Shown piece by piece: positions 47,161 to 57,246 of a stretch of DNA of 64,000 nucleotides (position 1 is the stretch's first letter; each line of letters begins with the position of its first letter). Made by a program: the position numbers and the translations under genes. Below the pieces are notes generated by a model that ran no database searches, had not been told where the DNA came from, and saw only the letters and a list, made by a program, of their open reading frames with translations. This DNA is from Hyphomicrobiaceae bacterium (GTDB lineage Bacteria; Pseudomonadota; Alphaproteobacteria; Rhizobiales; Hyphomicrobiaceae). Location: NCBI GenBank assembly GCA_046348995.1, contig JAXMDB010000008.1:211525-275524 (forward strand), read 5' to 3'.

Positions 47161-48522
47161 CTACTCGTCCGCCAGCGCATACTTCTTGAGCAGCCGGTAC
47201 GTATTGCGCTCGCTGATGCCGAGCACCTCGGCGATGCGGGAGCGGTGGCCGTTGTATTTGACGACGAGGTCGCCGATGTAGCGGCGCCTGATTTCCTCGA
47301 GCGTCGGCTCGTGGTCGAAGCTCAGCACCGACTGATCGGCTCCCGCGCCCGGCGTGCCCTGCAGCATGATGTGGCCGGCATGGATGACCGGTGCGTCGCC
47401 CGAGACGAGGATCGCGCGCTCGATGACGTTCCTGAGCTCGCGGATGTTGCCGGGCCACGCGTAGCTCGTCAGCAGGTCGATCGCATCCTTGCCGAGCCGC
47501 TTCATCTTCGCGCGCTGGAACGAGCGCGTCTCGAGGAAGCGGTCGGCGATGAGCGCGATGTCCTCGCGCCGGTGGCGGAGCGGCGGCACATTGATGAGCA
47601 CGGTCGCCAGGCGATAGTAGAGGTCGGAGCGGAAGCGGGCGTCGTCGATGAGCCCGAGCAGGTTGCGGTTGGTCGCGGCGACGAAGCGGACGTCGCTCGA
47701 CAGGCTCTGCACGCCGCCGACGCGCCGGAACTCTCCCGTCTCGAGCACGCGCAGCAACTTCGCTTGCATGCCCGCCGGCAGCTCGCCGATCTCGTCCAGG
47801 AAGACGGTGCCGCCTTCGGCAACCTCGATGAGGCCGTCCTTGCGGCGCTCGGCCCCCGTGAAGGCGCCGCGCTCGTGGCCGAACAGCTCCGACTCGAACA
47901 GCGTGTCCTGCAGCGTCGTCGCGTCGATGGCGACGAAGTTCGATTTTGCCCGCTGCGACAGGAGATGGATCGACTTCGCCACCAGCTCCTTGCCGACTCC
48001 ACTCTCGCCCTCGATCAGGATCGTCGAGTTGGAGGGCGCGACGAGCTCGATCAGGCGCACCATCTCGAGGAAGGCCGGGCTGCGGCCCACCATCAATTGT
48101 GTGAGGCTCGGATTGAGCTGATCGCGGTAGTAGTCGAAGCTGCGCTTGAGCGAGCTCGTCTCCAGAACGCGATTGACGGCGAGCTCGAGCTCGGACGGAT
48201 TGACCGGCTTGACGAGGTACTCGGCGGCGCCCGCCCGCATGCTCTCGACCGCCTGCTTGATGCTGCCGCTCGCCGTCAGCACGATGACCGGGCAATGCGT
48301 CGTCAGCTCCGGCAGGCACGCGCTGCCTTCGGCATCCGGCAGCTTCATGTCGAGCATCACGAGCGAGGGGTCGCCGGCATGCAGCGCCGCCTTGGCCTCG
48401 ACCCAGGTGTGCGCACTCGTCGTGAAGTGCCCCATGCGCCGCATCTGCTCGACGAGCAGCCGGTTGAGAGTCCGGTCGTCCTCGATGACGAGAACGCGCT
48501 TGCTGTGACGTGCCGCTTTCAT
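47161..48522 (-). CDS. Sigma-54-dependent response regulator (NtrC/Fis family enhancer-binding protein)
   Basis: Receiver domain (D in MLDMKLP). AAA+ sigma-54 interaction domain with Walker A GESGVGKE, the GAFTGA motif (ERGAFTGAE) and Walker B (FLDEIGEL). C-terminal Fis-type HTH. 453 aa. Confidence 0.9.
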   Translation of the reverse strand: MKAARHSKRVLVIEDDRTLNRLLVEQMRRMGHFTTSAHTWVEAKAALHAGDPSLVMLDMKLPDAEGSACLPELTTHCPVIVLTASGSIKQAVESMRAGAAEYLVKPVNPSELELAVNRVLETSSLKRSFDYYRDQLNPSLTQLMVGRSPAFLEMVRLIELVAPSNSTILIEGESGVGKELVAKSIHLLSQRAKSNFVAIDATTLQDTLFESELFGHERGAFTGAERRKDGLIEVAEGGTVFLDEIGELPAGMQAKLLRVLETGEFRRVGGVQSLSSDVRFVAATNRNLLGLIDDARFRSDLYYRLATVLINVPPLRHRREDIALIADRFLETRSFQRAKMKRLGKDAIDLLTSYAWPGNIRELRNVIERAILVSGDAPVIHAGHIMLQGTPGAGADQSVLSFDHEPTLEEIRRRYIGDLVVKYNGHRSRIAEVLGISERNTYRLLKKYALADE

Positions 48523-50369
48523 GGGAGAGCCGCCTGTCGATCGGCCGACGGCATGGTGATGCGGAATCGCGTGCCCGAACCGCTCTTGCTCTCGACCGTG
48601 ATGGTGCCGCCCCAGCTTTTCAGGATCTCGCGACAGATCGGCAGGCCGAGGCCGGTGCCGTGCGCGCCATCGGCCCGGCGGCTCCAGAACGGCTCGAAGA
48701 TGCGCTGCTGATGCTCGAGAGGAATGCCGCAGCCGGTGTCGGCGAAATCGATCTCGAGGGAGTCGCCCGCGCGGCGGCCGGTGATCGTCAGCACGCCGCC
48801 TTCGGGCATGGCGTGAAACGCGTTCTGGGCGATGTTGAGCGCGAGCATGCGCATGTCGCTGTCGCTGGCGATGACTCTGAGATCGGGCGCGATCGCAGAC
48901 CGGATCTCGATCTTGCCCCCTAGAGCCTCGGCCGACAGGAGCGAGAGCGTATCGGCGACCACGTCGTTGAGGACGACGAGCTCGGGCTCTCCGCTCGACG
49001 GCGAGGACAGTTTGAGAAGCCGCTCCGTCACCTCGATGCAGCGGCCGATCTGCTGCTCGATCACCGGCACATAGGTGCGCGCGCCATCAAACCGCTCCTC
49101 GGCGATCTCGCGGCTGACGGCGCTCAGGCCGAACTGGATGGACGCCAGCGGATTGTGAATCTCGTGGGCGACGCCGGCGGCGAGGTAGCCGATCTCCGAC
49201 AGCCGCTGCTCCTGCGAGACCTTCAAGTCCTGGCTCAGATCGCGCACGACCTCGACGATCACATCGCGCCGCTCGCCCTTCACCTCGATCGACAACGGGG
49301 CGGCGGACACCTCGACATAATACTGCGTCGCGTCCTTGCGCACGTGACGATGCCGGCAGCTGACTTGGGATTGGCCCTTGCGCATCTCCTCGAGCGGACA
49401 CGTGACAAGCGTCGGCGCGCAGGGCCGGTCGCGACCGTGGCTCGAGAGGTAGCAAGGTCCGCCGACGATCTCGCCGCGTGCGTAGCCCGTCTGCGCCGCG
49501 AAGGCCGTGTTCGCCATAAGTACGGTGTAGTCGGCGTCGATGACGCGCACGCCGTCGGGCATGCCGTCGATGAGCGCCTGCAGGTTGGCCTCGCGCCGCT
49601 CGATGCTGCGAATGCCGTCGCCGATCTTTGCGGCCATGGCGTTGAACGATCTGGCGAGCGCTGCCATCTCGTCATGACCGCGCTCGGGCAGGCGCTCTTC
49701 CAAATAGCCATGCGCGATCGCCGCAGTCGCCGCGTCGAGACGCGCGAGCGGCGCGAGCACTGCCCGGTGCAGAACCGAAGCGATGCCGGCGATGGCGACC
49801 GCGAGCACCGTGCCGCCGGCGCCGCCGAGTGCCAAGGTCGCGCGGAGGATGTTGCCGAGGATGGAGCCGTCGGCATAGTCGACGACGATCGTGGACGCGG
49901 CGTCCCCGCCGCGGGCAAGCGTCGCCACGGTTCGCATGACGTCGCCTCGGTCGCCCTCGACGACACCGGCGCGTATCCCCTCACGCCCCTCGACCGGCCG
50001 GCACTCCGGACAGGTCCGATCCGTGACAGCTACCGTGGCTGTCCCGGTCGCGGCAAGCACCGTTCCATCGCGCGCCAAAACCGCGATTCCCACGACACCC
50101 GGATGCTGGCCGGCCGCGTCGATGGCCGTCCGCAGGGCCGCGCGATCGGACAGCGGCGCGCGGCTCTCGAGCGTGGCCTGTGCGAGATCGCTGATCGCTA
50201 CCGCGGCGTTCGTGCGATCCGACAGCATGTGGTTGCGATAGGCGAGCATCAGGATGAGGAGAAAGAAGAGCGAGGCGAGTGACGGGATGACGATCACGGT
50301 CATGAGCAGCCGGCGGCGCAGGCTGCCTGCTATCCAGTCCCGAACCGCTGAGACCGCTCGCATGCTCAT
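48519..50369 (-). CDS. PAS domain sensor histidine kinase (membrane; HAMP-like, PAS, HisKA, HATPase_c)
   Basis: TM helix (LLMTVIVIPSLASLFFLLILMLA), several Cys clusters (CPECRP; CYLSSHGRDRPCAPTLVTCP), H-box (GVAHEIHNPLASI) and ATPase boxes (DTGCGIP, GTGLGLPI). The probable start is the internal ATG at about 50369, adjacent to the upstream gene's stop. The ORF track extends to 50441. Confidence 0.85.
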   Translation of the reverse strand: MSMRAVSAVRDWIAGSLRRRLLMTVIVIPSLASLFFLLILMLAYRNHMLSDRTNAAVAISDLAQATLESRAPLSDRAALRTAIDAAGQHPGVVGIAVLARDGTVLAATGTATVAVTDRTCPECRPVEGREGIRAGVVEGDRGDVMRTVATLARGGDAASTIVVDYADGSILGNILRATLALGGAGGTVLAVAIAGIASVLHRAVLAPLARLDAATAAIAHGYLEERLPERGHDEMAALARSFNAMAAKIGDGIRSIERREANLQALIDGMPDGVRVIDADYTVLMANTAFAAQTGYARGEIVGGPCYLSSHGRDRPCAPTLVTCPLEEMRKGQSQVSCRHRHVRKDATQYYVEVSAAPLSIEVKGERRDVIVEVVRDLSQDLKVSQEQRLSEIGYLAAGVAHEIHNPLASIQFGLSAVSREIAEERFDGARTYVPVIEQQIGRCIEVTERLLKLSSPSSGEPELVVLNDVVADTLSLLSAEALGGKIEIRSAIAPDLRVIASDSDMRMLALNIAQNAFHAMPEGGVLTITGRRAGDSLEIDFADTGCGIPLEHQQRIFEPFWSRRADGAHGTGLGLPICREILKSWGGTITVESKSGSGTRFRITMPSADRQAALP

Positions 50370-50839
50370 TGCCGCGCGAGCCGGAGCAGGAGCGATTCTT
50401 GGGGTGCCTCGTCGGCATCGATCTCGACCACGCGCGAGCATCGCGCCGGCAAATCGGCCTCGTGCGCGGCAATCGGGATGACGACGGGGTGGCCCCGCGG
50501 CGTATCGAGGAAATGCGCGAGAAACGCACGACGCTCGCTCGCGGGCTTCGTCGCCAAGAGCGCCTCGGCATTCTGCAACACCAGACCGGAGGGCGCGATG
50601 CCATCGGCGATCGCCTCGTCGATGGCGGTGAGGGGCAAGCGTGCGGCGTCCCAGCCGAGCGGCTTCAGGCGCTCAGCACGGAAATCCACATACGCAAGTC
50701 CCAGCGCGCGCGCCATCTCCTCGACGAGTGCGGGGTGATAGCGCGTCAGCTTGGCGATGAAGCCACCCCGGCGGCCGTGCGCATCGAGGCATGCCTCGAT
50801 GGCGGTCAACCAGCGCGGTGCACCGGGCTGCTGGGTCAT
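50366..50839 (-). CDS. Hypothetical protein (157 aa), first gene of the kinase/EBP operon
   Basis: It is co-oriented with, and abuts, the kinase gene. No signal peptide or recognisable motif. Confidence 0.45.
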   Translation of the reverse strand: MTQQPGAPRWLTAIEACLDAHGRRGGFIAKLTRYHPALVEEMARALGLAYVDFRAERLKPLGWDAARLPLTAIDEAIADGIAPSGLVLQNAEALLATKPASERRAFLAHFLDTPRGHPVVIPIAAHEADLPARCSRVVEIDADEAPQESLLLRLARQ

Positions 50840-51193
50840 CTCCTAATCTCTCGCGATTCCATTTGGGTAAGCGCCCCCACGGCGTCCCCCGATCGGGACG
50901 CCCTCTGCGCTCACGATGTGTGCATTGTTTCTCTGCTAATGGGCTCGCGCTTTGCGCCCGATCAATTCGGATGAGCGAGTTGATCAGCGCTCGTCCTACC
51001 CGATCGGCGCTACCCCCGAAGCGAGCCTGACAAGTTGTCCGAAGCGAAAAGCGAGGCGAAACAAGGCAAACCGGTTGGCAACCCAAAAGCGACCCGACAG
51101 AATGGCAGATTCGCTGAGCCGATCCGGAGTTGAAATCACCCAGGCTAAGTCATAAGCTATTGTTTTTAAATCACTATTTTATCGTCGGTAAGG

Positions 51194-51210
51194 TTGGCAC
51201 ACGGCTTGCT
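51194..51210 (+). promoter_or_regulatory. Sigma-54 (RpoN) -24/-12 promoter
   Basis: TTGGCACacggcTTGCT matches the TGGCAC-N5-TTGCW consensus with the conserved GG and GC dinucleotides correctly spaced. It sits ~50 nt upstream of the ATG at 51258 and is preceded by an unusually AT-rich stretch (51150-51185) with an IHF-like AATCACTATTTTA. Confidence 0.65.
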
Positions 51211-51257
51211 GTGACGAGGTTCGTTAACGAATTCTCACTCGAGCAAGGTCGCATCGT

Positions 51258-51587
51258 ATGTTCGCAGCCGATCGCCGTCGGGTCGCAAATCTCCGCTCCG
51301 TGTTCGCCGCATCGCTCATCGTGCCATGTCTCGCCGTGCCCGCAGTCGCTGCGGGGCAGGCGTGGATCGCGGGGACTGCTCCCTCCATGCGCCCGGCCGA
51401 CGCGCCAGTGCTGGCGGCGGTCGACCACGACAAGGCTTGGTTCAAGCGAGCGCTGGCTGGCGTCTCGAAACCGGTACCGCCGAGCCTCGATTTTCTGAAG
51501 GATCAGGGCGGCTGGTTCACACCGTTCACGCACCCCGGAATGACGGGGCGCTACGACATTCGCAACCTCCACAACCAAGAGCCCTAG
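51258..51587 (+). CDS. Small secreted hypothetical protein (109 aa), first gene of the sigma-54 operon
   Basis: Signal peptide (AASLIVPCLAVPAVAAGQA). The conserved-looking C-terminus (GWFTPFTHPGMTGRYDIRNLHNQEP) matches no family I recognise. Confidence 0.5.
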   Translation: MFAADRRRVANLRSVFAASLIVPCLAVPAVAAGQAWIAGTAPSMRPADAPVLAAVDHDKAWFKRALAGVSKPVPPSLDFLKDQGGWFTPFTHPGMTGRYDIRNLHNQEP

Positions 51588-51719
51588 CCAACCGAACGTC
51601 TGGCAGAGCGCCAATCCCTTGGTGCGCTGCCGATAGCTGATCGCTGGGCTGCGATCGAACGCATGTGGCGGCCCCCAGCCCGAAACCGGGACCGCCTCGC
51701 AATACAGGAGCTTGAAACT

Positions 51720-52184
51720 ATGAAACGTATCGCAGCTGTCGCCGCCATCGCCCTCCTCTCCTCGTTCGGCGCTGCCTTCGCCGAGGACGAGCAGGCCGGC
51801 ATGTCCGGCATGAGCGGCATGTCCGGCATGGCCGGCGGCAACGCCGACTGGGTTTGCACGATGTGGGTCGACGCCGGCCAGATCGGCATGTCCGGGATGG
51901 GCGGCATGTCGGGCATGGGCGGCATGAATGGCATGAGTGGCATGGACGGCATGTCGGGCATGAATGGCATGTCGGGCATGGACGGCATGAGCGGCATGAA
52001 TGGCATGTCCGGCATGGATGGCATGAACGGCATGTCCGGGATGGATGGCATGAGCGGCATGAACGGCATGTCGGGCATGAACGGCATGTCCGGGATGGAC
52101 GGCATGTCGGGCATGAGCGGCATGGGCGGTCAGCCCGGCCAGGCTTGCGCTCAGTGGACGCACAAGACGCAGGTGAAGCAGTAA
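51720..52184 (+). CDS. Secreted methionine-rich Gly-Met-X tripeptide-repeat protein
   Basis: ATG 51720 preceded by CAGGAG. Signal peptide MKRIAAVAAIALLSSFGAAFA. About 31 GM(S/N/D/G) tripeptide repeats are bracketed by Cys residues (DWVCTMW ... QACAQWTHK). The underlying DNA is a 9-bp tandem array ggcatg(tcc/agc/aac/gac). Confidence 0.8.
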   Translation: MKRIAAVAAIALLSSFGAAFAEDEQAGMSGMSGMSGMAGGNADWVCTMWVDAGQIGMSGMGGMSGMGGMNGMSGMDGMSGMNGMSGMDGMSGMNGMSGMDGMNGMSGMDGMSGMNGMSGMNGMSGMDGMSGMSGMGGQPGQACAQWTHKTQVKQ

Positions 52185-52283
52185 TCGCACCTGCCCGGGT
52201 GGAGGCTGCGGAACCCGCGTCCGCGGTCTCTACCCGGACTTCTCAGATCCTTTGCATGCGAATGCGTTTCGCGAGGGGGCGAA

Positions 52284-53201
52284 ATGAAAAGGCAGTATGG
52301 CCTCGTGCCAGTCGTCGGAGCCGTTGCGATTTTGGCGGCAGGTCTGCTGCTCAGTCTGGGGGAGGGCGGCCGGTCAGGTGCTGGAGCTCAAGCAGGCCAG
52401 ACCGGATCGACCTCTCCCAGCGCCATCGAGGAGCTCGCCAAGGCGAAAAAGTCCTATCCCCGCGCCGTGTGGACACCATTGCACTTCACGCCCGCCATCG
52501 ACACGGCGACGAACGAGCAATGCCTCACCTGCCATCAGGAGATTCTGAAAGCGAAGGTTCGCGAGGTGTCGCCAGCCGGTCTTGCCGCCGCGGACACCAC
52601 CGCTTGGTATCAGACGCTCGACACCTATGCGGGCAAGCAGGAAACCTTCCACGCCCGCCACTTGAAGACGCCGCTCGCCAAGGAGGTCATGAACCTCACC
52701 TGCAATTTCTGCCATCGCGGCCACGATCCGCGTGAGGAGATGCCGGGCTCGAGCGCGACGACGACAGCAGCGGCCCTCGGCGATTTCACTTTCCGCAAGA
52801 CCGTCAATCCGTCGAAAACCTGCCTCCTTTGCCACGGCCGCTACCCGCAAGAGGTCATGACCGGAGTTGAGGGCTCCTGGCCCGAGGCCCGCAAGACCAT
52901 CGAGGATGCGTCCTCGCCGGATACACAGAACGGCTGCCTCGTCTGCCACAACATGGACGCCGGCATCCGCACAGTTCGCCATCAGGTGAGCTACCTCAAG
53001 GCCGACGCCATCGAGGCGCGGGCCAAGAAAGGCTCCTCCGACCTCTGCTACGGCTGCCACGGCGGACGTGCCTGGTACCGCATCAGCTACCCCTACCCGC
53101 GCCACCCGTGGAAGGACATGCCGGACGAGATGCCCGACTGGGCCAAGAGCCGGCCGACCGCCTCCGACCCGCGCTACGCGCTCGACAAGAAGACACCGTG
53201 A
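52284..53201 (+). CDS. Pentaheme c-type cytochrome (membrane-anchored or secreted)
   Basis: N-terminal hydrophobic segment (LVPVVGAVAILAAGLLLSL). Five CxxCH motifs: CLTCH, CNFCH, CLLCH, CLVCH, CYGCH. RBS GAGGGG. Confidence 0.85.
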   Translation: MKRQYGLVPVVGAVAILAAGLLLSLGEGGRSGAGAQAGQTGSTSPSAIEELAKAKKSYPRAVWTPLHFTPAIDTATNEQCLTCHQEILKAKVREVSPAGLAAADTTAWYQTLDTYAGKQETFHARHLKTPLAKEVMNLTCNFCHRGHDPREEMPGSSATTTAAALGDFTFRKTVNPSKTCLLCHGRYPQEVMTGVEGSWPEARKTIEDASSPDTQNGCLVCHNMDAGIRTVRHQVSYLKADAIEARAKKGSSDLCYGCHGGRAWYRISYPYPRHPWKDMPDEMPDWAKSRPTASDPRYALDKKTP

Positions 53202-53212
53202 GGGATGCCGTC

Positions 53213-55807
53213 ATGATCGACCCGAAACACGCGGGCAGCTGGCACGTCGAGACGCCCGTTCGCCTGAACCTCAATCGCCGCGATGTGCTCCGCGGACTGC
53301 TGGCGTCGAGCGCCATCGGCCTCGTGCCGCTCACCACGCTGACCTCGAGCAAGCCAGCCGCGGCCTTCGCCTACGAGCCATACCCAAAGGACGACGAGCT
53401 GACGACGGTCGTCACCAGCTGCGCGCACAATTGCGGCTCGCGTCATATGCTGGTCGCGCACAAGAAGGGCGACGTCATCGTCCGTCTGTCGACCGACGAC
53501 GGCCGCTATCAGGAGGACGGCTTCTTCGGCAAGGACACCGAGGAGGAGCCGCAGATCCGTGCCTGCCTGCGCGGCCGCTCCTACCGCTCGCGCCTCTATT
53601 CGCCCGAGCGCCTGCTCTATCCGATGAAGCGGGTCGGCAAGCGCGGCGAGGGCAAGTTCAAACGCGTGTCGTGGGACGAGGCGTTGGGCGGCATCGCCGA
53701 GAAGATGACGGAGATCAAGGCAAAGTACGGCCCGACCGCGCTGCTCGACCAGAGCTACGCCGGCGCCTCCTATGGCGTGCTGCACAAGTCGGATCAGATC
53801 GAAGGCCTGCTCGGCCGCTTCCTCGGCATGTTCGGCTGCCGCACGAACTCGTGGTCGGTGCCGTCCTATCAGGCGACGACCTTCTCCTCGCGCATGACCT
53901 TCGGCACCATCGAGGATGGCAACGAGGACGACACCTTCGCGCACTCCAAGCTCATCATCATGTGGGGCTGGAATCCGGCCTACACCTTCCACGGCGGCAA
54001 CACGTTCTACTACATGCGGCTCGCCAAGCAGCGCGGCTGCAAGTTCGTGCTCGTCGACCCGCAATACACGGACTCGGCCTCTGTCTATGACGCCTGGTGG
54101 ATCCCGATCCGGCCCAACACGGACGCCGCGATGCTTGCCGGCATGGCCCACCACATCTTCACCAACAACTGGCACGACCAAGCCTTCATCGACCGCTTCT
54201 GCCAGGGCGTGGATGCCGGCACGATGCCCCAGTGGGCCAAGGGCAAGGAGAGCTTCAAGGACTATATCCTCGGCACCATGGACGGGCAGCCGAAGACGCC
54301 CGAGTGGGCGGCCGAGATTTGCGGCGTCAAAGCCGAGGACATCAAGAAGCTCGCCGAGATGTATGCGACGACGAAGCCTGCGGCATTGAAAGCGTCGTGG
54401 GCGCCCGGCCGCAATGCATACGGCGAGCAGTACAGCCGCATGGCCGCCGCCGTGCAGGCGATCACCGGCAACATCGGCAAGCTCGGCGGGTCGTCGGAAG
54501 GCGTCGGCAAGGCCTGGCATCCGGAGGCGGTCGCCTATCCCTACGACGAGAACGCCAACATCTGGTTCGCCTCGATCAAGTCGGACCGCTGGGCGCACTG
54601 CGTGCTGAACTACCCCAACGTCAAGCGCGAGGAGATCGGTTGCTGGCCGAGGAACGACAAGCTCGACGGCACCATTCCCAACATCAAGGGGATCTTCTGG
54701 CAGGGCTCGGACTGGTTCAACCAGCTGACGAACATCAACAAGATGATCGAGGCGGTGCAGAAGCTCGAGCTCGTCGTCTGCATGGACTCGACGATCACGC
54801 CGTCAGGACTTTGGGCCGACTACCTGATCCCGATCGCCACGCATTTCGAGCGGCATGACACGGCGCTGCCCTGGTACAAGGGCCACTACTACATCCATCG
54901 CCCGCGTGTGATTGCCCCGCTCGGCGAGAGCCGCACGGATATCCAGGTCTTCACCGAGCTCGCCTATCGCCTGGAAGAGCTCGATCCGAAGACCCTCAAA
55001 GACTTCGGCAAGCGCTACAATCCGCGCGCGACCCGGGACTATTTCAACGACAATACCGCCGTCGACGAGGAGTATCTGACCCACTGGTGGAACGAGAAGG
55101 TGATGAAGCACCAGGGCGTCACCATGAGCTGGGAGGACTTCAAGAAGCACGGCGTCTACAAATTCAAGCTCGCCGAGCCGCACGTGGCTTTCCGCCAGCA
55201 GATCGAGACCGGGCTGCCGTTCTTGACCCCGTCGGGCAAGATCGAAATCCTCTCCTCGACCCTCGCGCAATACAAGGACTGGACGAAGACCGCCTACGGC
55301 TACGAGATTCCGGCGATCCCGAAGTGGATCGAGCCGTGGGAGTGGCTCGGCAACAAGGAGAAGACGGGCAAGCACCCGTTCCATCTGATCTCGCCGCATC
55401 CACGCTGGCGGACACACTCGATCTTCAACAACATCCCGTGGCTGCGCGAGACCTTCGAGCAGGAGGTGACGCTCAACGCCGCCGACGCCGCCAAGCTCGG
55501 CATCAAGACCGGCGACACGGTCGAGGTGTTCAACGATCGCGGCAAGTGCGTCGTGCCGGCCTACGTCACCGAGCGCTGCATGCCGGGCGTCGCGGTGTTG
55601 CACGAAGGGGCGTGGATGGATCTCGACAAGAACGGCGTCGACCGCGCGGGCAACCCGGACTTCCTGACCTTGGACGAGCCCTCGCCAGCCGGTGCCTTCG
55701 CCTACAACACCGTGCTCGTGAACATCGCCAAGTCGGAGCTCGAGCATCGCCCGGGCTGGGACCGGCTCGCGACCGCGCGCTCGTCCGTCTTCCGCCGCGA
55801 CATGTAA
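53213..55807 (+). CDS. Tat-exported molybdopterin oxidoreductase catalytic subunit (DMSO reductase family)
   Basis: Twin-arginine signal (NRRDVLRGLLASSAIGLVPL). It has the molybdopterin oxidoreductase fold, a molybdopterin dinucleotide-binding C-terminal domain and an atypical N-terminal Cys motif (SCAHNCGSRH...IRAC). 864 aa. Confidence 0.9.
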   Translation: MIDPKHAGSWHVETPVRLNLNRRDVLRGLLASSAIGLVPLTTLTSSKPAAAFAYEPYPKDDELTTVVTSCAHNCGSRHMLVAHKKGDVIVRLSTDDGRYQEDGFFGKDTEEEPQIRACLRGRSYRSRLYSPERLLYPMKRVGKRGEGKFKRVSWDEALGGIAEKMTEIKAKYGPTALLDQSYAGASYGVLHKSDQIEGLLGRFLGMFGCRTNSWSVPSYQATTFSSRMTFGTIEDGNEDDTFAHSKLIIMWGWNPAYTFHGGNTFYYMRLAKQRGCKFVLVDPQYTDSASVYDAWWIPIRPNTDAAMLAGMAHHIFTNNWHDQAFIDRFCQGVDAGTMPQWAKGKESFKDYILGTMDGQPKTPEWAAEICGVKAEDIKKLAEMYATTKPAALKASWAPGRNAYGEQYSRMAAAVQAITGNIGKLGGSSEGVGKAWHPEAVAYPYDENANIWFASIKSDRWAHCVLNYPNVKREEIGCWPRNDKLDGTIPNIKGIFWQGSDWFNQLTNINKMIEAVQKLELVVCMDSTITPSGLWADYLIPIATHFERHDTALPWYKGHYYIHRPRVIAPLGESRTDIQVFTELAYRLEELDPKTLKDFGKRYNPRATRDYFNDNTAVDEEYLTHWWNEKVMKHQGVTMSWEDFKKHGVYKFKLAEPHVAFRQQIETGLPFLTPSGKIEILSSTLAQYKDWTKTAYGYEIPAIPKWIEPWEWLGNKEKTGKHPFHLISPHPRWRTHSIFNNIPWLRETFEQEVTLNAADAAKLGIKTGDTVEVFNDRGKCVVPAYVTERCMPGVAVLHEGAWMDLDKNGVDRAGNPDFLTLDEPSPAGAFAYNTVLVNIAKSELEHRPGWDRLATARSSVFRRDM

Positions 55808-55819
55808 GGGGGCACCACG

Positions 55820-56491
55820 ATGGCCAACGCCAAAAAGCTCGACAGGACGCAGGTGGACGAGGCAATCGCGCGCCGCGACCGCGCCACCTACGAGCCCGTC
55901 AAACCCGAATTGCAGCTCGGCTTCATTCACAACAACGTCGACTGCATCGGTTGCCGCGCCTGCGAGATCGCCTGCAAGGACAAGAACGGACTGCCGCCGG
56001 GCCCGCGCTTCCGCCGCGTCATGTACGTCGAGGGCGGCACGTTCCCGGAGGTCTTCGCCTACAAGGTGAACATGTCATGCAACCACTGCGCGGAGCCGGC
56101 CTGTCTGCCGTCGTGCCCGACGGGCGCGATCTTCAAACGTGAGAAGGACGGTATCGTCGATATCGACTCGACGCTGTGCATCGGCTGCCGCCGGTGTGAG
56201 GCAGCCTGCCCGTTCGGGGCGCCGCAGTACATCCCCGAGTCCAACATCGTCGCCAAGTGCAACATGTGCGTCGACGAGATCGAAGCCGGCCGCAAGCCCT
56301 ACTGCGTCATGGCCTGCATGATGCGCGTGCTCGACATCGGCCCGATCGACAAGTTGCGGGACGGCACCTGGGAGACGAAGGCGCGCGGCCCTCAGGATAC
56401 GGTCGTCGGCCAAGTGCAGAACATGGCCGACCCCGAGCTCACCCATCCCTCGATCGTCTACGTGGCCCATCCGAAAGGCGTGGTGAAGTGA
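55820..56491 (+). CDS. 4Fe-4S ferredoxin-type electron-transfer subunit (DmsB-like, four clusters)
   Basis: Four Cys clusters: CIGCRACEIAC...C, CNHCAEPACLPSCP, CIGCRRCEAACP, CNMCVDEIEAGRKPYCVMAC. No signal peptide, as expected for Tat hitch-hiking with the catalytic subunit. Confidence 0.9.
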   Translation: MANAKKLDRTQVDEAIARRDRATYEPVKPELQLGFIHNNVDCIGCRACEIACKDKNGLPPGPRFRRVMYVEGGTFPEVFAYKVNMSCNHCAEPACLPSCPTGAIFKREKDGIVDIDSTLCIGCRRCEAACPFGAPQYIPESNIVAKCNMCVDEIEAGRKPYCVMACMMRVLDIGPIDKLRDGTWETKARGPQDTVVGQVQNMADPELTHPSIVYVAHPKGVVK

Positions 56492-57246
56492 TGCGCACAG
56501 TGTCGATCGCGAGGCGCGAGGAGCCGTCTGCTGAGAGCCAGCTCCGCCAAGCGGTCGCCGCCGATCTGCGACTGCTCGCTGCCCTTCACGATCGAGAGCC
56601 GACGGCCGCCCTGCTCGACGAGTTGCGGCGCGCACCGTTCGCCTCGCGACTCGGTCTCGTGCTCGACAGCGAAGGCGCGCGGCAGGCGCTTGCGGCCTTC
56701 GACGGTGCGCTCGCTGCACTGCCGGCCACCATCGATGGGAGCGTCGTCGACGATCTTGCGGCAGGATACGCCGACATCTACCTGACGCATCACTTGCGTG
56801 CGTCGCCCCTCGAGTCGGTCTGGCTCGACGAGGATCACCTCGTCCGCCAGGAGCCGATGTTCGAGGTTCGCAAGTGGTACCGGCACTACGGCCTCGGCAC
56901 CGCCGATTGGCGCAACCGGCCGGACGATCACCTCGTGCTCGAGCTTCAGTTCATCGCCGAGCTCGTCAGTCTGGAAGCAGCGCCTGCCGCACTTGGCGAT
57001 GCGGCCCGCTTCCTCGACGAGCACCCTCTCAAATGGATCGGCCTGTTCGCAGAGCGTGTGGCCACGAAGGGCGGACACGACTATTTCGCGGCGCTGGCGC
57101 TCTTGACCTCGGGCTATCTGCACGAGCTGCGGGCACGGCTGACGACCATTACCGGGATCGGCGTTCCCCTTGTCGCCGAGGCCAAGGACTCGGACAGGCT
57201 CCGGACATCCCCGGATCCGTCAAAACCTCAGACGGCGGGGTGCTGA
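56491..57246 (+). CDS. TorD/DmsD family redox-enzyme maturation chaperone
   Basis: ATG 56491 overlaps the upstream stop. All-helical, with TorD-like conserved Trp/Asp/His context (RPDDHLVLELQFIAEL). Confidence 0.7.
   Translation: MRTVSIARREEPSAESQLRQAVAADLRLLAALHDREPTAALLDELRRAPFASRLGLVLDSEGARQALAAFDGALAALPATIDGSVVDDLAAGYADIYLTHHLRASPLESVWLDEDHLVRQEPMFEVRKWYRHYGLGTADWRNRPDDHLVLELQFIAELVSLEAAPAALGDAARFLDEHPLKWIGLFAERVATKGGHDYFAALALLTSGYLHELRARLTTITGIGVPLVAEAKDSDRLRTSPDPSKPQTAGC

What the first reader, a model, noticed from the sequence alone, without database searches (positions are those of the whole stretch)
51720..52184. Secreted protein made almost entirely of Gly-Met-X tripeptide repeats, encoded by a 9-bp tandem DNA array
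After a Sec signal peptide, the protein is GMS GMS GMS GMA ... then about 27 consecutive GM(S/N/D/G) units. The repeat block is flanked by single Cys residues that could close it with a disulfide. The DNA is a near-perfect 9-nt tandem repeat (ggcatgNNc) of about 260 bp, which can expand or contract by replication slippage in frame. Met-rich motifs are known both as Cu(I)/Ag(I) ligands (MxxM in CopA/PcoA/CusF-like proteins) and as sacrificial oxidant sinks. The regular tripeptide periodicity is unusual in either case.
Basis: seen in the sequence. Interest (0 to 1): 0.85.

Follow-up and report, generated by a model that had tools for sequence, protein, structure and literature searches.

The report
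Methionine-repeat protein partnered with sulfoxide reductase
This is a real secreted, probably unstructured protein made of Gly-Met-X repeats, one of an apparently undescribed family that sits in front of a distinctive "DMSO reductase"-type molybdenum enzyme in many Proteobacteria, which suggests it is a rechargeable methionine-based oxidant sink.

Summary
Window 51720-52184 (+) encodes a 154-aa protein with a Sec-type leader and 31 Gly-Met-X units (4 + 27). One Cys lies on each side of the 27-unit block.

It is neither an oddity nor an artefact. It is the second gene of a sigma-54-driven operon: orf109, GM protein, membrane pentahaem cytochrome c, DmsA-like Mo-bisMGD subunit with a Ser ligand, DmsB-like FeS subunit and a TorD-like chaperone. 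A histidine kinase and an NtrC-type regulator are encoded divergently.

Orthologues of the catalytic subunit (77-83% identical) occur in Hyphomicrobiaceae, Competibacter, Rhodocyclaceae, Thiodiazotropha, Sedimenticola and large sulfur bacteria. About 49 of 56 loci with enough upstream DNA carry one or two signal-peptide GMx-repeat ORFs (11-90 units) just upstream. Searching from the GM side leads back to the same enzyme clade. A strong hairpin follows the GM gene specifically.

My best reading (confidence about 0.45) is an abundant, disordered periplasmic methionine carrier that oxidants convert to Met-sulfoxide and the co-encoded reductase recharges from quinol. That would be a functional analogue of MrpX/MsrPQ built from unrelated parts. 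Cu(I) binding, by-product scavenging and a scaffold role remain open. I found no description of it in the searchable literature.

The parts
51195..51210 (+). Sigma-54 promoter TGGCAC-N5-TTGCT, 48 nt upstream of orf109. It probably drives the whole operon.
   Evidence: It is the only zero-mismatch match in the 64-kb window. With a strict pattern there are 25 + strand hits in 978 kb of related loci, and about 20 of them lie 50-180 nt upstream of orf109. A sigma-54 activator is encoded divergently.
51258..51587 (+). orf109: small exported protein of unknown function, first gene of the operon. It has an invariant C-terminal motif W-x-T-P-F-x-x-x-G-M-x-x-x-Y-D-x-R-x-x-H.
   Evidence: It is conserved next to the GM gene or the cytochrome in nearly all related loci. 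There were 24 homologues, none with a Pfam domain or an informative name. The AF2 model has pLDDT 60, and the conserved motif is predicted disordered. The source genome annotates it as the 66-aa U1E49_16165.
51720..52184 (+). GMx-repeat protein gene, 154 aa including the leader. This is the finding itself.
   Evidence: define the ORF. The orthologue P0001 shares the flanks WVCTxWVDAxQIGM and GQACAQWTHK. L082 has the same N-terminus.
51720..51782 (+). Predicted Sec signal peptide (aa 1-21, with an AFA|E cleavage site).
   Evidence: Read directly from the sequence. Comparable leaders or lipoboxes sit at the N-terminus of the family members inspected.
51798..51833 (+). First mini-block of 4 GMx units (GMS GMS GMS GMA).
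   Evidence: The close relative L082 has 3 units here.
51846..51869 (+). Aromatic/Cys punctuation motif DWVCTMWV, containing Cys46.
   Evidence: The recurrent motif [WY][VI]C[TA]x[WY] appears in alphaproteobacterial and Competibacter family members.
51885..52127 (+). Main block of 27 consecutive GMx units (243 nt, a 9-nt period with 18- and 27-nt higher order).
52140..52166 (+). Second punctuation motif QACAQWTHK, containing Cys143.
   Evidence: It is conserved in P0001.
52195..52237 (+). An 18-bp GC-rich hairpin directly after the GM stop codon. It probably acts as a partial terminator or mRNA-stabilising 3' end that raises the GM:enzyme transcript ratio.
   Evidence: The 111-nt intergenic region folds at -53.7 kcal/mol with z = -4.05. 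Across loci, the 90 nt after the GM stop have a median z of -2.85, and 45 of 63 have z < -2. Only 4-24% reach that after orf109, cyt5, dmsA, dmsB or torD. Many beta- and gammaproteobacterial copies carry a T-run. There was no Rfam match.
52284..53201 (+). Membrane-anchored pentahaem cytochrome c (5 CXXCH, N-terminal hydrophobic helix). It is the likely quinol-side electron donor.
   Evidence: Searches give weak NapC/NirT, c7 and MtrC-type hits. It is 47-65% identical in almost all related loci. It is annotated U1E49_16175, 'hypothetical protein'.
53213..55807 (+). DmsA-like Mo-bisMGD catalytic subunit with a Tat leader (NRRDVLRG).
   Evidence: TIGR02166 dmsA_ynfE scores 1e-180, which is below its cutoff. 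The nearest solved structure is R. sphaeroides DorA; Ser147 and Tyr114 are conserved and Trp116 is Gly. It is 35% identical to E. coli DmsA. Orthologues are 77-83% identical across Alpha-, Beta- and Gammaproteobacteria.
55820..56491 (+). DmsB-like four-cluster FeS subunit.
   Evidence: TIGR02951 5e-58 and Fer4_11.
56491..57246 (+). TorD/DmsD-type Tat-proofreading chaperone. Its ATG overlaps the dmsB stop codon.
   Evidence: PF02613 4e-22, NF003442 TorD and the start codon check.
50366..50839 (-). orf157: conserved unknown protein encoded upstream of the kinase gene, found in alphaproteobacterial versions of the module.
   Evidence: It has no family hits. It is 37-43% identical in 12 related loci, at the same relative position in most of them.
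48519..50441 (-). Sensor histidine kinase (periplasmic domain, HAMP, PAS, HisKA, HATPase). It has a periplasmic CPEC motif and a cytoplasmic PAS with an invariant Cys3 motif.
   Evidence: The gene is conserved beside the operon.
47161..48522 (-). NtrC-type sigma-54-dependent response regulator.
   Evidence: Response_reg, Sigma54_activat and HTH_8. It is conserved beside the operon.

Best explanation
The GMx protein is exported by Sec and stays in the periplasm as an abundant, flexible and largely unstructured chain. Every third residue is a methionine flanked by Gly and a small polar residue, so its thioether is fully exposed.

Oxidants reaching the periplasm (hypohalous acids, chloramines, peroxides, peroxynitrite) would convert these Met to Met-sulfoxide and so spare other envelope proteins. 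The co-encoded periplasmic DmsAB-type molybdoenzyme would then reduce the sulfoxides back to Met. Electrons would come from the quinol pool through the membrane-anchored pentahaem cytochrome. The pair would thus act as a catalytic, quinol-driven oxidant sink.

The two-component system and sigma-54 switch the operon on. The hairpin after the GM gene would keep the substrate protein in stoichiometric excess over the enzyme.

**Shown here:** the protein's anatomy, the operon, the conserved linkage, the promoter, the hairpin and the S-oxide-reductase-type active-site residues.

**Inferred:** export, disorder, Met oxidation, that the enzyme's physiological substrate is this protein, and the inducing signal.
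For: 1. **Linkage from the enzyme side.** Of the 56 DmsA-like orthologue loci (of 80 retrieved) with at least 2.5 kb upstream, 46 carry a + strand ORF with at least 9 Met per 40 aa just upstream. Three more carry small or frameshifted ones. No other such ORF exists in the 64-kb window.

2. **Linkage from the GM side.** P0001, P0008, P0031 and P0011 were found only through repeat similarity. P0008, P0031 and P0011 sit directly upstream of a Mo-oxidoreductase gene. P0001's short contig shows the same operon start (orf109, GM, cytochrome). In L092 the cytochrome partner differs, yet the GM gene still precedes a 74%-identical catalytic subunit. The GM gene therefore tracks the catalytic subunit.

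3. **Enzyme type.** The best family is DmsA/YnfE. The nearest structure is DorA, with the Mo-ligand Ser147 and the S-oxide-associated Tyr114 conserved.

4. **Precedent for the chemistry.** DorA reduces protein-bound Met-sulfoxide about as efficiently as free MetSO. Its best peptide had the context GAGM(O)Q (PMC7402097).

5. **Precedent for the logic.** MrpX is a periplasmic Met-rich peptide that is sacrificially oxidised by hypochlorite and regenerated by a co-operonic Mo enzyme (PMC4436054).

6. **Protein-level selection.** Only Gly, Met and a small polar x are conserved. Ten different x codons are used. Over 67 ORFs the family is 38% Gly, 26% Met and 16% Ser, with 0.1% His. AF2 predicts no structure in the repeat (pLDDT 46).

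7. **Stoichiometry.** The hairpin or terminator is specific to the GM gene's 3' end.

8. **Independent placements.** Some Hyphomicrobiaceae add a second, lipoprotein-type GM gene between the cytochrome and dmsA. Rhodocyclaceae place GM before orf109.
Against: - There are no biochemical or expression data for any member. The substrate of this enzyme clade is unknown, and it is usually assumed to be a respiratory DMSO reductase.
- About five loci that keep orf109 and the cytochrome lack an adjacent GM gene, including Dechloromonas agitata. The enzyme can therefore exist without it, at least locally.
- The DorA 'SYGW' motif, said to be needed for sulfoxide reduction, reads SYAG here. E. coli DmsA also lacks that Trp.
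- The MxxM spacing fits Cu(I)/Ag(I) binding equally well.
- The regulator is not one of the known oxidant-sensing systems. Its invariant cytoplasmic Cys3 PAS motif could mean induction by oxygen or redox state, as for a respiratory enzyme.
Confidence: 0.45

Rival explanations
1. It is a soft-metal sponge or chaperone. The overlapping MxxM motifs would bind Cu(I) or Ag(I) in the periplasm, buffering the metal and protecting the FeS- and Mo-containing reductase, or delivering metal elsewhere.
For: (GMx)n is by construction (MxxM)n, the spacing of known Cu(I) Met motifs (my own knowledge of Ctr1, CopB/PcoB and CusF-type sites). One repeat-similarity hit, P0060, is a Cu(I)/Ag(I) efflux membrane-fusion protein fragment with an M-E/S/K-G-M segment. 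The kinase has a periplasmic CxxC motif in Alphaproteobacteria and Competibacter.
Against: There are no copper or silver homeostasis genes in or beside the module, in the window or in the loci inspected. His is almost absent (0.1%) and Asp is rare (0.6%) across the family, whereas bacterial periplasmic Cu sites usually mix Met with His or Asp. The idea does not explain why the gene tracks one specific S-oxide-reductase clade through three different operon architectures. The periplasmic CxxC is missing in Rhodocyclaceae and Thiodiazotropha, which still have GM proteins.
Confidence: 0.15
2. It is a by-product scavenger rather than a substrate. The reductase's true substrate would be a small oxidised compound, for example a halogen or chalcogen oxyanion, or DMSO. 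Turnover would release a reactive species, the GM protein would mop it up, and repair would be left to other Msr enzymes.
For: In perchlorate reducers MrpX serves exactly this purpose for reactive chlorine made during respiration. The enzyme is annotated everywhere as a respiratory DMSO reductase, and such genes are reported among the most highly expressed in lucinid symbionts. The hairpin-boosted expression of GM fits a consumable.
Against: S- and N-oxide reduction by Ser-ligated DMSO reductases yields harmless sulfides or amines. The known halogen-oxyanion reductases belong to other clades (my own knowledge). No chlorite dismutase or peroxidase is linked to the module. An enzyme of a type shown to reduce Met-sulfoxide sits in the same operon, so self-repair is the simpler reading.
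Confidence: 0.15
3. It has a structural or scaffolding role. The G-X-Y periodicity would give a collagen-like or polyproline-II assembly, or a Met-rich low-complexity condensate. The short aromatic motifs would be docking sites that tether or concentrate the reductase complex, possibly with orf109.
For: Pfam Collagen (PF01391) matches above its cutoff at 3e-14. Conserved aromatic punctuation motifs occur (WVCTQWT, YFKITPQGQIFFYP, QWVWxPSG), and C-termini are often basic. orf109 also looks like a mostly disordered protein with one invariant linear motif.
Against: The repeats contain no Pro, and Gly or Ser sits in the Y position, which disfavours a triple helix (my own knowledge). No trimerisation domain is present. 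NCBIfam collagen-adhesin models score far below their cutoffs. AF2 gives no structure. Rhodocyclaceae versions have no aromatic motifs at all. A scaffold does not explain why Met in particular is invariant.
Confidence: 0.1
4. It is a non-functional or mis-assembled repeat: a slippage-prone DNA array that happens to be open in one frame.
For: Several MAG assemblies break, frameshift or mask inside the array (L008, L013, L018, L019, L040, L043, L076, L082). The exact protein is absent from the 15-billion-protein collection although both neighbouring genes are present.
Against: The reading frame, the leader peptide and the position are conserved across three proteobacterial classes, including complete chromosomes. 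Codons are diversified while the peptide pattern is kept. GC3 is 0.90. An SD sequence, the promoter and a dedicated 3' hairpin are present.
Confidence: 0.02

Closest known systems
MrpX with YedY1/YedZ1 (MsrPQ-type) of Azospira suillum PS (Melnyk et al. 2015, PMC4436054)
   Same: Both are small Sec-exported periplasmic proteins whose main feature is a high Met content. Both are encoded in one operon with a periplasmic molybdoenzyme that can reduce sulfoxides and draws electrons from the membrane. The proposed logic is the same: sacrificial oxidation followed by enzymatic regeneration.
   Different: I could not test for sequence relationship. MrpX is 20% Met and 44% charged with no tripeptide repeat, whereas this protein is 24% Met, about 10% charged and strictly periodic. 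The partner enzyme belongs to the DMSO-reductase family (bis-MGD, plus an FeS subunit and a pentahaem cytochrome), not the sulfite-oxidase family (MsrP with haem-b MsrQ). Regulation is by a sigma-54 two-component system, not the ECF pair SigF/NrsF.
DmsABC (E. coli) and DorCA (Rhodobacter) S-/N-oxide reductases
   Same: All share a Tat-exported Ser-ligated Mo-bisMGD catalytic subunit. The window protein is 35% identical to DmsA and scores 254 bits against DorA. A DmsB-type FeS subunit and a TorD/DmsD chaperone are present. DorA has been shown to reduce protein-bound Met-sulfoxide (PMC7402097).
   Different: There is no DmsC-type membrane anchor; a pentahaem cytochrome only weakly related to NapC/NirT takes its place. 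The FS0 motif is C-x3-C-x3-H instead of C-x3-C-x3-C. The operon has two extra exported proteins (orf109 and GM) and sigma-54 control. The clade is about 80% conserved across classes but scores below the TIGR02166 cutoff.
Methionine 'Mets' motifs of copper proteins (Ctr1 MxxM/MxM, CopB/PcoB, CueO insert, CusB/CusF)
   Same: It has the MxxM spacing, an exported location and a flexible segment.
   Different: It is far longer and strictly periodic, has essentially no His or Asp partners, and is not linked to copper genes. This comparison rests on my own knowledge; I did not test binding.
Bacterial collagen-like proteins (Scl1/Scl2, Lcl; Pfam PF01391)
   Same: Gly is at every third residue over about 90 residues, and Pfam Collagen matches above its threshold.
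   Different: The repeat has no Pro and few charges, Gly or Ser occupies the Y position, and there is no trimerisation or anchoring domain. The NCBIfam adhesin models score far below their cutoffs.
Redox-responsive Met-rich low-complexity domain of yeast Pbp1/ataxin-2 (Kato et al. 2019, cited in PMC7402097)
   Same: It is a low-complexity Met-rich region whose behaviour is set by reversible Met oxidation.
   Different: That domain is eukaryotic and cytosolic, has no tripeptide repeat and has no dedicated reductase gene. This is an analogy only.

Membership tests
MrpX-type sacrificial Met-rich periplasmic peptide | Small protein with a signal peptide, exported to the periplasm | tested here: met
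   It is 154 aa with an N-terminal KR + hydrophobic + AFA|E leader. The family members inspected have a leader or a lipobox. The leader was judged by eye, without a predictor.
MrpX-type sacrificial Met-rich periplasmic peptide | High Met content (MrpX is 20%) | tested here: met
   The mature protein is 24% Met, and the family mean is 26%.
MrpX-type sacrificial Met-rich periplasmic peptide | The remainder is mostly charged residues (44% in MrpX) | tested here: not met
   D+E+K+R+H total 13 of 133 residues (about 10%). The rest is Gly, Ser and Asn.
MrpX-type sacrificial Met-rich periplasmic peptide | Co-operonic with MsrP/YedY (sulfite-oxidase-family Mo enzyme) and MsrQ/YedZ | tested here: not met
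   The partner is a DmsA/DmsB-type enzyme plus a pentahaem cytochrome.
MrpX-type sacrificial Met-rich periplasmic peptide | Oxidised by reactive chlorine species in vivo and re-reduced by the partner enzyme | not testable with these tools
   This needs biochemistry and genetics.
MrpX-type sacrificial Met-rich periplasmic peptide | Sequence homology to MrpX (Dsui_0158) | not tested
Neither Pfam nor NCBIfam has a model that matched.
DmsABC-type DMSO reductase system (for the operon) | Tat-exported Mo-bisMGD subunit with a Ser Mo-ligand, in the DmsA/YnfE family | tested here: met
   An RR leader is present. TIGR02166 scores 1e-180, which is below its curated cutoff (602 vs 778 bits). Ser aligns with DorA Ser147 and with the E. 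coli DmsA Ser of 'DYSS'.
DmsABC-type DMSO reductase system (for the operon) | DmsB four-cluster FeS subunit | tested here: met
   TIGR02951 scores 5e-58, at 196 bits against a cutoff of 214, so slightly below.
DmsABC-type DMSO reductase system (for the operon) | DmsC (NrfD-type) membrane quinol-oxidising anchor | tested here: not met
   No such gene is in the module. A pentahaem cytochrome c precedes dmsA instead.
DmsABC-type DMSO reductase system (for the operon) | FS0 cluster motif C-x3-C-x3-C...C | tested here: not met
   The window has CAHNCGSRH against E. coli CTVNCGSRC, so the third Cys is His. L092 shows the same.
Collagen triple-helix repeat (PF01391) / Scl-type adhesins | Uninterrupted Gly-X-Y periodicity | tested here: met
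   There are 27 consecutive triplets, and PF01391 scores 52.9 bits against a cutoff of 27.2.
Collagen triple-helix repeat (PF01391) / Scl-type adhesins | Pro-rich and/or charged X and Y positions that stabilise a triple helix, plus a trimerisation or anchor domain | tested here: not met
   The repeats contain no Pro. X is always Met, and Y is S, N, D, G or A. No extra domain is present. The NCBIfam SclB, SclA and Lcl models score 38-59 bits against cutoffs of 325-500.
Periplasmic Met-motif Cu(I)/Ag(I) binding proteins | MxxM / MxM motifs | tested here: met
   Every pair of adjacent units gives M-x-G-M.
Periplasmic Met-motif Cu(I)/Ag(I) binding proteins | Genomic association with cop/cus/pco/sil genes, or metal-responsive regulation | tested here: not met
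   No such gene is in the window flanks or in the related loci inspected.
Periplasmic Met-motif Cu(I)/Ag(I) binding proteins | Measured Cu(I)/Ag(I) binding | not testable with these tools
   This needs ITC, ICP-MS or competition assays.

The most novel reading that the evidence does not exclude
The widespread '~80%-conserved DMSO reductase' may not be a DMSO-respiring enzyme. It is found in sulfur-oxidising symbionts, in wastewater polyphosphate and glycogen accumulators, and in Hyphomicrobia, and such genes are reported among the most highly expressed in lucinid symbionts. It may instead be the catalytic half of a two-part periplasmic redox system whose real substrate is its own genetically encoded poly-methionine polymer. 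The GMx protein would act as a protein-bound thioether/sulfoxide mediator that lets the cell reduce diffusible oxidants at the expense of quinol. That would amount to 'respiring' oxidants through a rechargeable protein, possibly with energy conservation.
Probability: 0.3. Interest if true: 0.85.

Novelty: new variant of a known kind. Interest (0 to 1): 0.72.

Why it matters
**A component that has been overlooked.** Annotation and proteomics both tend to miss this protein. It is low-complexity and is often broken or frameshifted in assemblies. This exact protein is absent from a 15-billion-protein collection although both of its neighbours are present. The repeat contains no Lys or Arg, so standard tryptic proteomics cannot see it.

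**A possible re-reading of a common enzyme.** The protein accompanies a molybdoenzyme routinely annotated as a 'DMSO reductase'. That enzyme has been invoked as an electron sink or DMS source in chemosynthetic symbioses. It also occurs in organisms central to wastewater treatment, namely Competibacter, Dechloromonas and Hyphomicrobium. If the enzyme's job is to recharge this protein, those metabolic inferences need revisiting.

**A second solution to the same problem.** It would show that bacteria invented the 'sacrificial methionine plus molybdenum reductase' defence at least twice, from unrelated parts.

**A useful model substrate.** The sequence is minimal and designable (Gly for access, Met for chemistry, a polar residue for solubility). 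It suits studies of Met oxidation, of sulfoxide reductase specificity, and possibly of engineered antioxidant or metal-binding polymers.

Tried and rejected
- **HMMER against 1.84 billion representatives.** The GM protein gave 25,919 hits, but nearly all are long collagen-like G-X-Y proteins at 33-49% identity. The result cannot be used to size the family.
- **AlphaFold2.** The GM protein came out at pLDDT 46 and the orf109 alignment at pLDDT 60. Both are too poor for a fold search, so I ran none.
- **PDB search with orf109.** It returned only spurious alphaRep-type matches.
- **Pfam and NCBIfam on the GM protein.** They gave only collagen-type hits driven by composition. orf109 and orf157 had no hits.
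- **Literature.** 'GMSGMSGM' returned no papers, and 'Gly-Met' + repeat + periplasmic returned one unrelated paper. Methionine-rich combined with molybdopterin, pentaheme or dmsA gave only MrpX/MsrP and DorA work. Nothing covered this family or enzyme clade.
- **Rfam on 50800-52400.** No match, so the hairpin is not a known RNA family.
- **Looking up the source contig through P0081.** It is not on record. The source was identified instead from names attached to P0081 and P0100: a Hyphomicrobiaceae MAG with locus tags U1E49_16165 and U1E49_16175.
- **Phase variation.** I considered and rejected an on/off switch, because a 9-nt unit always slips in frame.
- **Antisense and other-frame ORFs.** I rejected the antisense MP(D/L/F/S) ORF and the other-frame H/R/W-rich ORFs over the array as genes. 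They lack leaders, have lower GC3 and are not conserved independently.
- **Unrelated GM-side contexts.** P0013 and P0063 sit among housekeeping genes. P0006 and P0007 are cytochrome c fusions elsewhere. Not every GMx module belongs to this operon.
Full report
**1. The observation**

Window 51720-52184 (+) is an ORF of 154 codons. An AGGAG lies 9 nt upstream of the ATG. The N-terminus MKRIAAVAAIALLSSFGAAFA|EDEQ has the n-, h- and c-regions of a Sec signal peptide. I judged this by eye because no predictor was available.

The mature part carries 31 Gly-Met-X units. Four lie at 51798-51833. A motif DWVCTMWV (Cys46) follows. An unbroken run of 27 units then spans 51885-52127 (243 nt), followed by GGQPGQACAQWTHKTQVKQ (Cys143). 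The mature protein is 24% Met, 29% Gly and 12% Ser. TRF finds the array at periods 9, 18 and 27 with 71-84% matches.

GGCATG is nearly invariant, but the x codon uses ten different codons, including both Ser codon families. GC3 is 0.90 in this frame. That pattern indicates selection on the peptide rather than a young slippage product. No other stretch in any frame of the 64-kb window reaches 7 Met per 40 residues.

**2. The surroundings**

The gene is the second in a co-directional cluster:

| Gene | Coordinates | Strand | Description |
|---|---|---|---|
| orf109 | 51258-51587 | + | Small exported protein, no family |
| GM protein | 51720-52184 | + | The finding |
| Cytochrome c | 52284-53201 | + | Pentahaem, with an N-terminal membrane helix |
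| DmsA-like | 53213-55807 | + | Tat-exported Mo-bisMGD subunit |
| DmsB-like | 55820-56491 | + | FeS subunit |
| TorD/DmsD-like | 56491-57246 | + | Chaperone |
| orf157 | 50366-50839 | - | Conserved unknown |
| Histidine kinase | 48519-50441 | - | HAMP-PAS sensor kinase |
| Response regulator | 47161-48522 | - | NtrC-type, sigma-54 dependent |

The only perfect sigma-54 promoter in the window (TGGCAC-N5-TTGCT, 51195-51210) lies 48 nt upstream of orf109.

Directly after the GM stop codon is an 18-bp GC-rich hairpin (52195-52237). The 111-nt intergenic region folds at -53.7 kcal/mol with z = -4.05. It matches no Rfam family.

The flanks of this roughly 10-kb module are housekeeping genes: polA, hutD, a HAD hydrolase and a branched-chain amino-acid ABC transporter.

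The source is a Hyphomicrobiaceae MAG. orf109 and the cytochrome are its U1E49_16165 and U1E49_16175. The exact GM protein, with either start codon, is not in the 15-billion-protein collection. The tag numbering does leave room for one feature between those two genes.

**3. The enzyme**

The catalytic subunit scores best against the DmsA/YnfE family model (1e-180, below the curated cutoff). Its nearest solved relative is Rhodobacter sphaeroides DMSO reductase DorA. The alignment conserves the Mo-ligand Ser147 and Tyr114 and replaces Trp116 with Gly. It is 35% identical to E. coli DmsA, which also lacks that Trp. Its FS0 motif is CAHNCGSRH where E. coli has CTVNCGSRC.

There is no DmsC, so the pentahaem cytochrome presumably links the enzyme to quinol. 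Database names for its many close homologues are generic: 'anaerobic dimethyl sulfoxide reductase subunit A' or 'molybdopterin-dependent oxidoreductase'.

**4. Related loci: the key result**

A scan of one genome per species returned at least 595 relatives, and the 80 best are 77-83% identical. They come from Hyphomicrobiaceae and other Hyphomicrobiales, Competibacter, Rhodocyclaceae (Dechloromonas, Azonexus, Zoogloea), Burkholderiaceae, Thiodiazotropha, Sedimenticola, Chromatiaceae, Thiothrix and Thiomargarita/Beggiatoa.

tblastn with the window proteins shows the whole module is conserved: orf109, cytochrome, DmsA, DmsB, TorD, kinase and regulator.

*Linkage from the enzyme side.*
- Of 56 loci with at least 2.5 kb upstream of dmsA, 46 have a + strand ORF with at least 9 Met per 40 aa in that upstream space. 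Three more have small or frameshifted ones.
- These ORFs carry 11-90 GMx units (median 34), and the members inspected begin with a leader peptide or a lipobox.
- Pooled composition is 38% Gly, 26% Met, 16% Ser, 0.1% His and 0.5% Cys. The x position is S in 57% and G in 31%.
- About five loci that retain orf109 and the cytochrome lack an adjacent GM gene, for example Dechloromonas agitata. Two Albibeggiatoa loci have a different context.

*How the blocks are punctuated.*
- Alphaproteobacteria and Competibacter use [WY][VI]C[TA]x[WY], often twice.
- Many Gammaproteobacteria use YFKITPQGQIFFYP and QWVWxPSG.
- Rhodocyclaceae use only Lys-rich linkers.

*Placement varies.*
- Rhodocyclaceae put GM before orf109.
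- Some Hyphomicrobiaceae add a second, lipoprotein-type GM gene between the cytochrome and dmsA.

*Linkage from the GM side.* Proteins found only through repeat similarity lead back to the same enzyme. P0008, P0031 and P0011 lie directly upstream of a Mo-oxidoreductase operon, and P0001's short contig carries orf109, the GM gene and the cytochrome. In L092 the cytochrome arrangement differs, yet the downstream catalytic subunit is 74% identical to the window's. The GM gene therefore follows the catalytic subunit rather than the electron donor.

*Other GMx modules.* They also occur fused to class I cytochromes c, to a DsrE-like domain next to moaE/moaD/moeA, to a NapC-type cytochrome and in a CusB-like fragment. 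GMx is thus a wider periplasmic module.

**5. Regulation and dosage signals are conserved too**

With a strict sigma-54 pattern there are 25 + strand matches in 978 kb of loci, and about 20 sit 50-180 nt upstream of orf109.

The 90 nt after the GM stop fold unusually well. The median z is -2.85, and 45 of 63 loci have z < -2. Many beta- and gammaproteobacterial cases have a T-run typical of intrinsic terminators. The same statistic after orf109, the cytochrome, dmsA, dmsB or torD is near zero, with only 4-24% below -2. This points to more GM transcript than enzyme transcript.

All 45 kinase orthologues share an invariant cytoplasmic PAS motif C-x9-10-C-x6-C-P with a nearby His. A periplasmic CxxC is present only in some lineages.

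**6. Repeat dynamics**

- A close relative of the window locus (L082; orf109 82% identical) has 3 rather than 4 units in the first block, and its contig ends inside the array.
- The orthologue P0001 has about 13 units where the window has 27, with the same flanks.
- Species whose dmsA genes are 91-96% identical differ by 87 vs 72 and by 13/11/12 units. Others are equal at 89/89 and 24/24.

In-frame expansion and contraction therefore happens. A 9-nt unit cannot switch the gene off.

**7. Structure**

AF2 gives pLDDT 46 and no secondary structure in the repeat, which fits disorder. The Pfam Collagen match reflects Gly at every third residue. With no Pro, and with Gly or Ser in the Y position, a stable triple helix is unlikely. 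That last judgement is my own knowledge and was not tested.

**8. Interpretation**

Three things are conserved across the family: an exposed Met every third residue, export, and a place beside a Ser-ligated S-oxide-reductase-type enzyme.

Two published precedents fit. MrpX of Azospira suillum is a Met-rich periplasmic peptide that is sacrificially oxidised by hypochlorite and regenerated by a co-operonic Mo enzyme (PMC4436054). DorA, the nearest structural relative of the enzyme here, reduces protein-bound Met-sulfoxide about as well as free MetSO, and its best peptide had a G-M(O)-Q context (PMC7402097).

I therefore favour a catalytic oxidant sink. The GM protein would be oxidised, and the reductase would recharge it from quinol through the cytochrome. 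A Gly before and a small residue after each Met would let the side chain reach the bottom of a deep active-site funnel. That last point is inference.

I put this at about 0.45. Nothing has been measured, some genomes have the enzyme without an adjacent GM gene, and the regulator could equally signal anaerobic respiration.

The rivals are:
- Cu(I)/Ag(I) binding (0.15). The MxxM spacing fits, but there is no His and no copper context.
- A scavenger for a reactive product of a different substrate (0.15).
- A scaffold or condensate (0.10).
- An artefact or non-gene (0.02).

**9. Novelty**

Searches for the motif, and for Met-rich proteins together with DMSO-reductase-type enzymes, found only MrpX/MsrP and DorA work. 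Papers on lucinid symbionts mention highly expressed 'DMSO reductase' genes and assume DMSO reduction, with no experimental test and no mention of the repeat protein. I did not verify that the genes in those reports are the orthologues found here; that is an inference.

I class the finding as a new variant of a known kind. It follows the MrpX logic with unrelated components, and it belongs to a large, apparently undescribed family.

Noticed in passing
window 51258-51587 (+); alignment A1: orf109 is a small exported protein family with no Pfam or NCBIfam model. It has 18 invariant positions, including W-x-T-P-F...G-M...Y-D-x-R..H at the C-terminus, and it always accompanies this reductase operon. 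AF2 predicts the conserved motif as disordered, which suggests a docking peptide.
   Followed up: partly
window 48519-50441 (-), cytoplasmic PAS domain (protein residues about 325-360): All 45 kinase orthologues keep the motif C-[YH]-x2-(S)-H-x5-C-x2-(T/S)-L-x2-C-P, that is three invariant Cys plus a His. It looks like a metal or FeS site and may be the real signal input, sensing oxygen or redox state.
   Followed up: partly
window 48519-50441 (-), periplasmic domain (CPEC, protein residues about 144-147): A periplasmic CxxC, or Cx3-4C, is conserved in alphaproteobacterial, Competibacter and some Burkholderiaceae kinases. It is absent in Rhodocyclaceae and in Thiodiazotropha/Sedimenticola.
   Followed up: partly
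window 53213-55807 (+), residues about 69-78 of the DmsA-like protein: The FS0 cluster motif reads CAHNCGSRH where E. coli DmsA has CTVNCGSRC, so the third Cys is His. L092 has the same change (CAHNCGARH). This may mean a His-ligated or altered FS0 cluster in this clade.
   Followed up: partly
L001 5420-5887; L007 4684-5796; L020 5357-5794; L028 5350-5850; L031 5506-5817: Some Hyphomicrobiaceae carry a second GMx protein with a lipobox (for example LTVAGC|SEQK) between the cytochrome and dmsA. The window has no such gene; only 12 nt separate the two genes there.
   Followed up: no
L039 3-644: In a Sedimenticolaceae chromosome a third GM protein lies about 5 kb upstream of dmsA. It has 46 units of GMN/GMS/GMA, Asn-rich like the window's, fused to a C-terminal globular-looking domain of about 70 aa.
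   Followed up: no
P0002/L084, P0003, P0006/L083, P0007/L089, P0009, P0012, P0058/L085: GMx modules are fused to class I cytochromes c, to a NapC-type tetrahaem cytochrome (as a C-terminal tail) and to a periplasmic DsrE-like domain. The DsrE fusion gene sits next to moaE, moaD and moeA.
   Followed up: partly
window 50366-50839 (-): orf157 is a conserved protein with no family match. It is encoded upstream of the kinase gene and, in most alphaproteobacterial loci, lies between torD and the kinase gene. Its end overlaps the longest kinase ORF.
   Followed up: no
window 51584-52123 (-) and 51854-52735 (+): The array generates long mirror ORFs: M-P-(D/L/F/S) repeats on the minus strand and H/R/W-rich repeats in another plus frame. 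Gene callers could pick these by mistake. Several MAGs show frameshifts into these frames (L013, L018, L019, L071).
   Followed up: yes
window 51720-52184; The exact GM protein, with either start, is missing from the 15-billion-protein collection. The two flanking genes of the same MAG are present (U1E49_16165 and U1E49_16175). The window's own DmsA-like protein also did not appear among the hits, where the best was 82% identical.
   Followed up: partly
window 51885-52127: The window's protein is atypical for the family in using Asn and Asp at x: 11 of 31 units against about 2% family-wide. The x codons AGC, AAC, GAC and GGC are single-nucleotide neighbours.
   Followed up: partly
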